Positions 1,809 to 2,514 of a stretch of 33,990 nt of DNA are shown here, piece by piece. Below the pieces are notes generated by a model. The model did not search any database and was not told the DNA's origin. It saw only the letters and a program-made list of their open reading frames with translations. Made by a program: the position numbers and the translations under genes. Position 1 is the first letter of the stretch, and every line of letters begins with the position of its first letter. Origin of the DNA: a virus; UHGV virus genome UHGV-0171993; one strand, 5' to 3'.

Positions 1809-2146
1809 GAAGGAAACAAAACAGAAACAGCAATTGCCGTTACCTGTTGTTATCATGGCAAGTAAACGTATCTCAGGCGAGCGCATTGCGCCGTTCTGAC
1901 GCAGATAAACTAGCCTGGATAGATGGTGCTGGCAATAAAAAATAGCGTTTTCTTATCGGTGTCGGTAAGATTGCTGCGGGTGCTTGAGGCTGTCTGCCTC
2001 GGGCATGCCACTGTAAGGCAGACAGAGAAAAGCCCCAGTTAACATTACGCGTCCTGCAAGACGCTTAACATTAATCTGAGGCCCAATCTATGTCTCACAA
2101 ATGTAGGTTAGCCTCTTACGTGCCGAAAGGCAAGGAGAAGCAGGCT

Positions 2147-2302
2147 ATGAAGCAGCAAAAGGCGATGTTAATCGCCCTGATCGTCATCTGTTTAACCGTC
2201 ATAGTGACGGCACTGGTAACGAGGAAAGACCTCTGCGAGGTACGAATCCGAACCGGCCAGACGGAGGTTGCTGTCTTCGTGGACTACGAATCTGAGAAGT
2301 AA
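2147..2302 (+). CDS. hok: Hok/Gef family type I toxin (RelF/HokD-like small membrane toxin)
   Basis: Translation MKQQKAMLIALIVICLTVIVTALVTRKDLCEVRIRTGQTEVAVF... matches the Hok/Gef family over its whole length; the ORF-track start at 2090 is an in-frame upstream extension. Confidence 0.85.
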   Translation: MKQQKAMLIALIVICLTVIVTALVTRKDLCEVRIRTGQTEVAVFVDYESEK

Positions 2303-2374
2303 GAGTGACTAGGCGGGAGAGTAATCTCCCGCCACCTCTGATGTGTCAGGCATCCTCAACGCACCCGCACTTAA

Positions 2375-2396
2375 CCCGCTTCGGCGGGTTTTTTCA
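2375..2396 (+). terminator. Rho-independent terminator (3' end of hok transcript)
   Basis: cccgc-ttcg-gcggg hairpin followed by TTTTTT. Confidence 0.65.
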
Positions 2397-2514
2397 CGTA
2401 CTGTGGTTGTGAATACGATTGGTATTAGGCTATGCTAACAACATTAGCCTGACTAATTTTGTATTGACTTGATTTTTTGTTAAAGAACAGGACGGAGAAG
2501 TAAGGGTACACCCA

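What the first reader, a model, noticed from the sequence alone, without database searches (positions are those of the whole stretch)
1890..2400. Complete hok-type type I toxin locus with structured leader; Sok-like antisense RNA expected but not annotatable by eye
The toxin ORF (2147-2302) sits in a long leader containing a perfect 10-bp inverted repeat (ctgtctgcct at 1990-1999 pairing with aggcagacag at 2016-2025) and a 3' hairpin (2312-2333) plus terminator (2375-2396), consistent with the fold-back regulated architecture of hok mRNAs. In the established hok/sok system a short antisense RNA is encoded opposite the leader upstream of the toxin; here that would lie roughly 2040-2140 on the minus strand. 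In this prophage the hok gene is not preceded by relBE.
Basis: partly seen in the sequence, partly recalled or inferred. Interest (0 to 1): 0.5.

Follow-up and report, generated by a model that had tools for sequence, protein, structure and literature searches.

The report
Intact prophage hok/sok toxin-antitoxin locus

Summary
The 51-aa ORF (2147-2302) is a Hok/Gef toxin, 100% identical in protein to HokW of Stx2 phage Sp5, which is a proven type I TA system. Its minimum-energy fold pairs nt 1978-1989 with 2354-2366 (z = -6.3). That fold-back recurs in 37 of 39 distinct relatives, with compensatory changes.

Sok can be placed by homology. Its 5' end is at about 2098 (this mapping reproduces the curated K-12 sokC 5' end exactly) and its 3' end at about 2022. 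It has a -10 TAACCT (2110-2105), a -35 TTGCCT (2133-2128), a 14-nt single-stranded tail and a long terminator hairpin.

Two corrections. Rfam's 'sok' model (118 bits) matches the hok sense strand, so it describes the leader, not Sok. And 2105-2133 is the Sok promoter, not transcript.

The same leader occurs at 100% identity in four complete E. coli genomes, and the family in 4,292 of 5,426. Verdict: already known, low interest.

The parts
1966..1971 (+). hok promoter -10 box (TAAGAT), 6 nt upstream of the predicted mRNA 5' end; the -35 is weak
   Evidence: TAnnAT is nearly invariant at this position in 45 distinct loci (T4, A5, T9 of alignment A2). Homology to Sp5, Rac, K-12 hokC and R1 starts here. 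Not detected by the generic promoter scan.
1978..2395 (+). Predicted full-length hok mRNA (about 418 nt)
   Evidence: Rfam RF01794 model position 1 falls at 1978. nhmmer aligns the leader from position 1 in nearly all relatives. MFE is -170.7 kcal/mol, z = -6.3. The ends are inferred, not measured.
1978..1989 (+). tac (translational activator element), GGGUGCUUGAGG
   Evidence: Pairs with 2354-2366 in the unconstrained MFE and in the centroid structure. 12/12 identical to Sp5 hokW. Element defined in PMC9841398.
1997..2009 (+). Partner of tac in the metastable 5' hairpin of the nascent transcript
   Evidence: The first 53 nt, and the 3'-truncated transcripts, fold with 1978-1990 paired to 1997-2009 (duplex -17.2 kcal/mol). 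The concept comes from PMC9841398.
1990..2025 (+).
   Evidence: Formed in the full-length MFE. Recovered by RNAalifold on 45 loci with covariation at one pair. Part of the Rfam consensus structure.
2030..2036 (+). ucb (upstream complementary box, the anti-SD of mok), AAGCCCC
   Evidence: Pairs with the mok SD region in the closed form (-7.5 kcal/mol) and with tac in the open form (-7.9 kcal/mol). The tac/ucb helix is recovered by RNAalifold but is invariant, so there is no covariation.
2022..2098 (-). Predicted Sok antisense RNA (about 72-77 nt): a 14-nt single-stranded 5' tail (2098-2085), a long hairpin (2084-2030) and a U-rich 3' tail GGGGCUUUUCUCU
   Evidence: The same alignment-based mapping gives exactly the curated sokC 5' end in K-12. 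The fold is -29.2 kcal/mol, z = -4.9. In 45 of 45 distinct loci the antisense strand folds better than the sense strand of the same segment. sokW RNA was detected by northern blot in the 94% identical Sp5 locus (PMC8621323). The transcript was not observed here.
2105..2110 (-). Sok promoter -10 (TAACCT on the minus strand)
   Evidence: 6/6 identical to Sp5. Conserved as TAAYCT-like with an invariant 17-bp spacer in the relatives. It has only 3 of 6 matches to TATAAT, so the generic scan misses it.
2128..2133 (-). Sok promoter -35 (TTGCCT on the minus strand); overlaps the 5' edge of the hok SD on the other strand
   Evidence: The complement of the invariant CAAGG block in alignment A2. 6/6 identical to Sp5, Rac and K-12 hokC.
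2078..2081 (+). mok Shine-Dalgarno sequence (GAGG), 8 nt before the mok ATG
   Evidence: Invariant GAGG in A2. The GAGG mok SD is defined in R1 by loss-of-function mutations (PMC9841398). It lies inside the Sok-complementary stretch.
2090..2302 (+). mok reading frame (70 codons), here in frame with hok
   Evidence: An ATG is conserved at this column in 42 of 45 distinct loci, in frame with hok in 31. It equals orf74 'gef homolog' of VT2-Sakai.
2078..2115 (+). Sok target hairpin (mok SD / dcb stem GAGGC 2078-2082 with GCCUC 2111-2115; loop CUCACAA 2094-2100 contains a YUNR-type CUCA)
   Evidence: Local fold -13.3 kcal/mol. The helix is in the Rfam consensus. The dcb role comes from PMC9841398. 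The YUNR U-turn is recalled from Franch et al. 1999 and was not tested here.
2132..2137 (+). hok Shine-Dalgarno sequence (AAGGAG), sequestered by CUCUU 2113-2117
   Evidence: The CUCUU/AAGGAG helix is recovered by RNAalifold in 45 loci. 16/16 identical to Sp5 across SD to ATG.
2147..2302 (+). hok toxin gene (51 aa, Hok/Gef family)
   Evidence: Pfam PF01848 81.1 bits. Protein identical to HokW of Sp5, which is toxic on induction and localises to the inner membrane (PMC8621323).
2312..2333 (+). 3' stem-loop that would protect the processed (truncated) mRNA from 3' exonucleases
   Evidence: -19.7 kcal/mol, z = -5.1. 20/22 identical to Sp5. The role of the homologous R1 stem-loop comes from PMC9841398.
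2354..2366 (+). fbi (fold-back inhibitory element), CCUCAACGCACCC
   Evidence: 12 bp plus one bulge with tac, -19.3 kcal/mol. Found 45-56 nt after the stop codon in 37 of 39 distinct loci with compensatory changes.
2373..2395 (+). Intrinsic terminator of hok mRNA (AACCCGC-UUCG-GCGGGUU plus a U-run)
   Evidence: -11.8 kcal/mol, z = -3.6. Shared with AH19B041, Rac and K-12 hokD but absent from Sp5. Missed by the generic scan.

Best explanation
The region is an intact hok/sok-family type I toxin-antitoxin module of the prophage hokW-sokW / hokD type.

The mechanism below is inferred from the anatomy plus published work on R1 hok/sok and Sp5 hokW-sokW.
- A weak promoter (-10 at 1966-1971) makes a stable mRNA of about 418 nt (1978-2395).
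- While the mRNA is being made, its 5' tac element is held in a metastable hairpin with 1997-2009.
- In the finished RNA, tac pairs with fbi (2354-2366) near the 3' end. The ucb box (2030-2036) then covers the mok SD (2078-2081), so the RNA is neither translated nor bound by Sok.
- Slow 3' trimming back to the stem-loop at 2312-2333 removes fbi. tac switches to ucb, and the mok SD / dcb target hairpin (2078-2115) forms.
- mok translation, which opens the CUCUU/AAGGAG helix over the hok SD, then allows Hok synthesis.
- A stronger antisense promoter (-35 at 2133-2128, -10 at 2110-2105) makes a short-lived Sok RNA of about 75 nt (2098 to about 2022). Its 14-nt single-stranded tail is complementary to the mok start region. 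Duplex formation blocks mok, and hence hok, translation and leads to RNase III cleavage.
- When Sok synthesis stops, for example on loss of the element or on prophage induction, the Hok peptide reaches the inner membrane and kills or lyses the cell.

Shown here: presence, position, conservation and predicted folding of every element. Inferred: transcription, processing, Sok action and toxicity.
For: Toxin: Pfam HOK_GEF 81 bits, and the protein is identical to HokW.

Leader: Rfam RF01794 118 bits against a gathering score of 59.

Similarity to the validated locus: DNA is 93.6% identical to the hokW-sokW locus of VT2-Sakai/Sp5 over 1970-2376. It is 100% identical in tac, ucb, mok SD, dcb, both Sok promoter hexamers, hok SD and fbi. 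For that locus, toxicity, neutralisation by sokW from its own promoter, loss of neutralisation on mutating the sokW promoter, and a northern signal for sokW are all published (PMC8621323).

Fold-back: the unconstrained MFE and the centroid pair 1978-1989 with 2354-2366. The same duplex sits at a fixed distance from the stop codon in 37 of 39 distinct loci from Escherichia to Photorhabdus, Pantoea and Erwinia, with compensatory substitutions. The clearest exception is K-12 hokC, whose 3' end is cut by IS186A.

Truncated and nascent forms adopt the metastable-type 5' hairpin.

Sok: the mapping reproduces the curated sokC 5' end exactly. The -35 / 17-bp spacer / -10 arrangement is conserved in the distinct loci. 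The antisense strand folds better than the sense strand in 45 of 45 (for example -29.2 vs -17.8 kcal/mol), which indicates G.U pairs selected on the Sok strand. The fold has z = -4.9.

Element definitions are taken from PMC9841398.
Against: No expression data exist for this window: neither the hok mRNA ends nor Sok were observed.

Both promoters are poor consensus matches and were not flagged by the generic scan. The terminator was not flagged either.

The tac/ucb helix is invariant, so there is no covariation support for it.

Folding of 3'-truncated transcripts in silico gave the metastable-type hairpin, not the tac/ucb stem expected for the active form. The open conformation is therefore supported only by the Rfam consensus, by RNAalifold and by a modest duplex energy (-7.9 kcal/mol).

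The Sok 5' tail differs from the validated SokW at 6 of 17 positions. The target changes with it, since they are the two strands of one duplex.

Many chromosomal hok loci are known to be inactivated, so intactness of sequence elements is not proof of activity.
Confidence: 0.9

Rival explanations
1. The locus is a sequence-intact but functionally silent relic, like most chromosomal hok loci of E. coli K-12. It would be transcribed too weakly, or carry a point change that prevents activation, so it has no phenotype.
For: The hok promoter has only a -10-like box, with no recognisable -35. K-12 shows two routes of decay in this same family: IS186A cutting the 3' end of hokC, and relE replacing the leader of hokD. 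The in-silico truncated form did not adopt the open tac/ucb conformation.
Against: Every regulatory box is identical to the functional Sp5 hokW-sokW, and the toxin is identical in protein. There is no IS element, frameshift or stop. A weak hok promoter is the normal state of the family (PMC9841398 background).
Confidence: 0.07
2. There is a hok toxin gene regulated only by its own mRNA fold-back, with no functional Sok RNA. The Rfam 'sok' hit would simply be the sense-strand leader.
For: RF01794 matches the hok sense strand, not the antisense strand. The Sok -10 has only 3 of 6 consensus matches. PGAP-annotated relatives carry no sok feature.
Against: The antisense promoter geometry is conserved across genera. 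The antisense hairpin is more stable than its sense counterpart in 45 of 45 loci. The mapping coincides with curated sokC. A sokW RNA made from identical promoter hexamers was detected and shown to neutralise HokW (PMC8621323).
Confidence: 0.03
3. The molecular module is the same, but its biological role is different. Rather than stabilising the prophage by post-segregational killing, it may assist host lysis and phage release on induction (as reported for hokW-sokW), or act as an abortive-infection defence against other phages (as reported for R1 hok/sok against T4).
For: PMC8621323 reports that sokW disappears after mitomycin C, that HokW production depends on RecA, and that phage release halves without the locus. 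The locus lies in the nin region next to other accessory modules, a Doc/Fic pair and Kiwa.
Against: Nothing in the sequence discriminates between these roles. The reported effect sizes are modest (2-fold). The window lacks the prophage immunity and integration region, so whether it can be induced is unknown.
Confidence: 0.5

Closest known systems
hokW-sokW of Sakai prophage 5 (Stx2 phage VT2-Sakai / Sp5), E. coli O157:H7 (Takada et al. 2021, PMC8621323)
   Same: 93.6% DNA identity over 1970-2376. Identical Hok protein. Identical tac, ucb, mok SD, dcb, Sok -10 and -35, hok SD and fbi. The same in-frame 70-codon mok. The same clade-specific insertion of about 20 nt that lengthens the Sok terminator stem. 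Both lie in lambdoid prophages.
   Different: The Sok 5' tail and its target differ at 6 of 17 positions (GUGAGACAUAGAUUGGG here, GUUCAGCAUGGAUUGAG in Sp5). The sequence upstream of the -10 is unrelated. Sp5 lacks the terminator hairpin at 2373-2395.
hokD (relF) of the Qin cryptic prophage, E. coli K-12
   Same: Near-identical from window 2133 onward: hok SD, CDS, 3' hairpin, fbi and terminator. PGAP names the closest genomic relatives hokD.
   Different: In K-12 the whole leader (tac, 5' hairpin, ucb, Sok gene, mok, Sok promoter) is replaced by the 3' end of relE, and the C-terminus is ...FTAYEPEE. The window has the complete locus and no relBE.
hokC (gef) / mokC / sokC of E. coli K-12
   Same: Same architecture. 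The Rfam leader hit is 118 bits. mok is in frame. The curated sokC 5' end coincides with the position predicted by the alignment.
   Different: About 83% identity in the CDS (130 of 156 positions). A shorter Sok (59 nt) without the clade-specific insertion. The 3' end is interrupted by IS186A, so fbi is lost.
hok/sok (parB) of plasmid R1, the prototype
   Same: All named elements are present in the same order. The Sok promoter and dcb block (…AGCCTCTTAC…CAAGGAGAAG…) is conserved. tac/fbi pairing is present.
   Different: Only 83 of 156 CDS positions match. mok is out of frame with hok. The 5' hairpin is longer. It is carried on a plasmid, with a post-segregational killing role.

Membership tests
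hok/sok type I toxin-antitoxin family | Small (about 50 aa) hydrophobic Hok/Gef toxin ORF | tested here: met
   PF01848 81.1 bits against a cut-off of 22, covering profile positions 1-42 of 42. 100% identical to HokW.
hok/sok type I toxin-antitoxin family | Conserved structured mRNA leader from +1 to the hok start codon (Rfam RF01794, gathering score 59) | tested here: met
   118.1 bits, model positions 1-157 of 157, at 1978-2152 on the + strand. The strand meaning was checked at K-12 hokC/sokC.
hok/sok type I toxin-antitoxin family | Long-range tac/fbi pairing between the 5' end and the 3' UTR of the full-length mRNA | tested here: met
   1978-1989 pairs with 2354-2366 in the MFE and centroid, duplex -19.3 kcal/mol. 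Conserved with compensatory changes in 37 of 39 distinct loci.
hok/sok type I toxin-antitoxin family | Overlapping mok reading frame with its own SD, whose SD is sequestered by ucb (closed form) and which is the target of Sok | tested here: met
   mok is 2090-2302 with GAGG at 2078-2081. ucb/SD duplex -7.5 kcal/mol, formed in the full-length MFE. The ATG is conserved in 42 of 45 loci. Translational coupling itself was not tested.
hok/sok type I toxin-antitoxin family | Conformational switch to the open form (tac/ucb stem and mok SD/dcb stem) after 3' processing | tested here: inconclusive
   The helices are possible (-7.9 and -7.1 kcal/mol). They appear in the Rfam and RNAalifold consensus. 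But MFE folds of truncated transcripts gave the metastable-type hairpin instead, and tac/ucb is invariant, so there is no covariation.
hok/sok type I toxin-antitoxin family | Metastable 5' hairpin that holds tac during transcription | tested here: met
   1978-1990 pairs with 1997-2009 in the first 53 nt (-23.2 kcal/mol, z = -2.6) and in truncated RNAs. In silico only.
hok/sok type I toxin-antitoxin family | Cis-encoded antisense Sok gene: own promoter, single-stranded 5' tail complementary to the mok translation start, terminator hairpin | tested here: met
   -35 TTGCCT, 17-bp spacer, -10 TAACCT. A 14-nt tail plus a hairpin, -29.2 kcal/mol, z = -4.9. The mapping reproduces the curated sokC 5' end. 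The antisense strand is more stable than the sense strand in 45 of 45 loci. This is sequence-level evidence only.
hok/sok type I toxin-antitoxin family | Sok RNA is actually transcribed and unstable, the duplex is cleaved by RNase III, the mRNA is processed at its 3' end, and Hok kills the cell | not testable with these tools
   Shown for Sp5 hokW-sokW (PMC8621323) and R1 (PMC9841398), not for this sequence.
hokD (relF) as found in E. coli K-12 Qin (relB-relE-hokD operon) | hok CDS placed directly downstream of relBE, without its own leader, mok or sok | tested here: not met
   The window has the full leader and Sok gene. K-12 homology starts only at 2133. There is no relBE upstream. The PGAP name 'hokD' for close relatives reflects protein similarity only.

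The most novel reading that the evidence does not exclude
The Sok 5' recognition tail and its target loop may be specificity alleles kept different by selection, so that several prophage-borne hok/sok copies in one cell do not cross-neutralise. In this reading the window's allele (GUGAGACAUAGAUUGGG) would be orthogonal to the validated SokW. The observations behind it: there are 11 different tails among 15 distinct hokD/hokW-clade leaders; mean pairwise identity is 0.69 there against 0.92-0.96 in the flanking elements; and E. coli genomes carry a median of 2 and up to 9 matching places for the locus. This is inference only. The same nucleotides also encode the dispensable Mok N-terminus, so relaxed constraint is an equally simple explanation.
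Probability: 0.35. Interest if true: 0.3.

Novelty: already known. Interest (0 to 1): 0.1.

Why it matters
It matters little as a discovery. The module is one of the best-studied toxin-antitoxin systems, and this prophage version has a published functional study.

The practical value is in annotation.
- It gives coordinates for a Sok gene that automatic pipelines leave unannotated.
- It shows that Rfam RF01794 'sok' hits must be read as the hok leader on the toxin strand.
- It documents the intact form of the locus of which K-12 hokD is a truncated remnant.
- Together with the adjacent Doc/Fic pair and the Kiwa system, it marks the nin/Q region of this prophage as a cluster of accessory toxin and defence cargo.

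Tried and rejected
- Generic sigma-70 and terminator scans on 1750-2550 and 2290-2450 found none of the three functional signals. I rejected them as uninformative: the family's promoters are weak consensus matches, and the scan's greedy stem consumes part of the U-run.
- I took the Rfam 'sok' hit as direct evidence for Sok, then rejected that after one search showed the model lies on the hok sense strand.
- I looked for sokW primer, probe and TSS sequences in PMC8621323. [quoted passage not shown]
- RNAalifold on the 45-sequence leader alignment failed to resolve the indel-rich middle part, which holds the Sok terminator and the target hairpin. I replaced it with per-sequence folds.
- MFE folding of truncated mRNAs to show the open tac/ucb conformation did not yield it.
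- PADLOC has no Hok model, so there was no hit for the toxin.
- I considered a relBE-hokD operon arrangement and rejected it.
- I considered a decayed locus with an IS element, frameshift or truncation. No evidence for one.

Full report
**Observation.**
- ORF 2147-2302 encodes a 51-aa peptide.
- The perfect inverted repeat is CTGTCTGCCT 1990-1999 / AGGCAGACAG 2016-2025.
- A GC-rich hairpin lies at 2312-2333.
- A hairpin plus T-run lies at 2373-2395.

The ORF is a Hok/Gef toxin (Pfam PF01848, 81 bits against a cut-off of 22). An upstream ATG at 2090 opens a 70-codon frame that runs in frame into hok. Rfam gives one strong hit in the region: RF01794 'sok', 118 bits against a gathering score of 59, at 1978-2152 on the + strand.

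**What the Rfam hit means.** The hit is on the toxin strand, and it ends at the hok start codon. I tested the model at a curated locus. In K-12 MG1655, mokC and hokC are on one strand and the curated sokC RNA is on the other. RF01794 matches the mokC/hokC strand, from 150 nt upstream to the hokC ATG. So the Rfam 'sok' family models the sense-strand hok leader, and Sok is the complement of an internal part of it. The hit therefore validates the leader directly and Sok only indirectly.

**Relatives.** The 601-bp region matches 4,722 of 5,426 complete E. coli genomes, with a median of 2 and up to 9 places per genome. It also matches many lambdoid and Stx phages, where it is annotated Hok, MokW or HokD. 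The closest characterised locus is hokW-sokW of Sakai prophage 5 (VT2-Sakai), at 93.6% identity over 1970-2376. Takada et al. 2021 (PMC8621323) reported the following for that locus:
- HokW is toxic and locates to the inner membrane.
- sokW expressed from its own promoter neutralises it, and mutating the sokW promoter abolishes protection.
- sokW is seen on northern blots and disappears after mitomycin C.
- Deleting the locus halves Sp5 release.

The window's Hok protein is identical to HokW. Its 175-nt leader is 100% identical to leaders in four complete E. coli genomes, where the gene is named hokD.

**Anatomy.** I took the element definitions from Le Rhun et al. 2022 (PMC9841398) and mapped them by alignment to Sp5, Rac, K-12 hokC and an R1-type plasmid locus. 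I then scored each element. Homology to all relatives starts at a -10-like box, TAAGAT (1966-1971), 6 nt before GGGTGCTTGAGG (1978-1989, tac).

| Element | Window coordinates |
|---|---|
| ucb | 2030-2036 |
| mok SD (GAGG) | 2078-2081 |
| mok ATG | 2090 |
| dcb | 2111-2115 |
| hok SD | 2132-2137 |
| hok | 2147-2302 |
| 3' stem-loop | 2312-2333 |
| fbi | 2354-2366 |
| terminator | 2373-2395 |

tac, ucb, mok SD, dcb, both Sok promoter hexamers, hok SD and fbi are each 100% identical to Sp5.

**Fold-back.**
- The unconstrained MFE of 1978-2395 (418 nt, -170.7 kcal/mol, z = -6.3) pairs 1978-1989 with 2354-2366, and the centroid keeps that helix. The duplex is 12 bp with one bulge, -19.3 kcal/mol.
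- In the same fold, ucb pairs with the mok SD.
- The nascent 5' 53 nt, and 3'-truncated transcripts, instead pair tac with 1997-2009. This is the metastable-type hairpin.
- I did not obtain the open tac/ucb conformation by MFE folding of truncated RNAs. That step rests on the Rfam and RNAalifold consensus and on the literature.

**Family-wide test.** A scan of one genome per species returned 47 hok loci from Escherichia, Shigella, Kluyvera, Citrobacter, Photorhabdus, Pantoea and Erwinia. The leader aligns from position 1 in nearly all of them.
- In 37 of 39 distinct loci, the first 12 nt find a strong complement 45-56 nt after the stop codon.
- The changes are compensatory: GGGUGC/GCACCC against GGGCGC/GCGCCC, and GAGA/UCUC against GAGG/CCUC.
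- The clearest exception is K-12 hokC, whose 3' end is cut by IS186A. The other is L044.

**Sok.**
- Promoter: on the minus strand, the alignment shows a conserved -35 (TTGCCT, 2133-2128), an invariant 17-bp spacer and a -10 (TAACCT, 2110-2105).
- 5' end: taking the start 7 nt downstream of the -10 gives 2098. Applied to K-12, the same rule gives exactly the curated sokC 5' end.
- 3' end: the curated sokC 3' end lies in the U-rich tail, which corresponds to about 2022 here.
- Fold: the 72-nt core (2098-2027) folds into a 14-nt single-stranded tail plus one long hairpin (-29.2 kcal/mol, z = -4.9). The RNA is fully complementary to the mok SD and start codon, and it does not reach the hok SD.
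- Strand asymmetry: in all 45 distinct loci the antisense RNA folds much better than the sense RNA of the same segment. This is the signature of G.U pairs maintained on the Sok strand.
- Clade feature: the hokD/hokW clade carries an insertion of about 20 nt that lengthens this hairpin.

**Relation to hokD.** K-12 hokD (relF) aligns with the window only from 2133 onward. Everything upstream is the end of relE. The window thus holds the complete form of a locus that K-12 Qin retains only as a remnant without its leader or Sok gene. There is no relBE in the 1.9 kb available upstream.

**Differences from hokW-sokW.**
- The Sok tail and target differ at 6 of 17 positions.
- Within the clade this stretch is the most variable part of the leader: 0.69 mean pairwise identity against 0.92-0.96 for the flanking elements, with 11 alleles among 15 distinct sequences. 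This could reflect selection for non-cross-reacting alleles, or simply weak constraint on the Mok N-terminus.
- Sp5 lacks the terminator hairpin present here.

**Context.** The window is a lambdoid prophage. In order it carries:
- HNH and DUF551 genes;
- hok/sok;
- a 59-aa ORF plus a Doc/Fic protein;
- DUF968, RusA and Q;
- a Kiwa pair on the opposite strand;
- a methylase and two tRNAs;
- a holin, followed by long plus-strand ORFs in the position of the late genes, which I did not annotate.

**Verdict.** The module is an intact, sequence-typical member of a thoroughly characterised family. Essentially the same locus has been studied experimentally and is widespread in E. coli. Novelty: already known. 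Interest: low. Expression, processing and toxicity were not, and could not be, tested here.

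Noticed in passing
window 1978-2152 (+); L003 602-754 (-) vs the curated sokC at 653-711 (+): Rfam RF01794 'sok antitoxin' matches the hok sense strand and spans 157 nt from mRNA +1 to the hok ATG. It models the hok leader rather than the Sok RNA of about 55-77 nt, so annotating its hits as 'sok' puts the feature on the wrong strand with the wrong ends.
   Followed up: yes
window 5381-6792 (-): A complete Kiwa anti-phage defence pair lies immediately downstream of the Q antiterminator gene (5000-5359) on the opposite strand. 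KwaB is 5381-6265 (PADLOC 492 bits) and KwaA is 6271-6792 (274 bits).
   Followed up: partly
window 2515-3198 (+): A 59-aa ORF (2515-2694) is followed by a Fic/Doc-family protein (2704-3198, Pfam 43.5 bits). The close relative is annotated 'type II toxin-antitoxin system death-on-curing family toxin'. This is probably a second TA module directly downstream of hok/sok. There were no PADLOC hits.
   Followed up: partly
window 7448-8816 (+): A DNA methylase (N6_N4_Mtase, PADLOC MTase_II 503 bits) is followed by tRNA-Thr(tgt) at 8663-8736 and tRNA-Gly(tcc) at 8742-8816. These lie between the Q region and the holin gene (9378-9770).
   Followed up: no
window 2082-2104; alignment A2: The Sok 5' tail, target loop and Mok N-terminus form the most variable part of the leader. 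There are 11 tail alleles among 15 distinct hokD/hokW-clade sequences. The window's allele differs from the validated SokW at 6 of 17 nt. These may be specificity alleles.
   Followed up: partly
window 2090-2149; 45 loci of alignment A2: The mok ATG is in frame with hok in 31 of 45 distinct loci, including this one, Sp5 and K-12 hokC. It is out of frame in 11, including R1 and Rac. This fits the idea that translation of mok matters, rather than its product.
   Followed up: partly
L005 (VT2-Sakai) vs window 2373-2395: The experimentally studied Sp5 hokW locus loses homology at about window position 2376 and lacks the terminator hairpin found here and in Rac, AH19B041 and K-12 hokD. Its mRNA 3' end must therefore be formed differently.
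   Followed up: no
L010 (E. coli ECMA0423), L015 (S. flexneri SFBU1023): Both have a leader identical to the window's but a HokD-type C-terminus (…FTAYEPEE instead of …FVDYESEK). This shows mosaic recombination between leader and CDS alleles.
   Followed up: no
L018, L026; hit H16: E. coli-type hok loci appear on tiny contigs labelled Acinetobacter idrijaensis and Xanthomonas pisi, and at 94% identity in 'Actinobacillus phage vB_Apl-pPE4'. These are probably contamination or mislabelled hosts.
   Followed up: no
window 1777-1809: A 13-bp GC-rich hairpin lies between the DUF551 gene and the hok promoter. The scan calls it a terminator on the minus strand only, where it is followed by a T-run. 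On the plus strand the stem is preceded by an A-run and followed by TTTTTG within the stem, so it could also insulate the hok transcription unit from upstream plus-strand transcription; that is inference.
   Followed up: no
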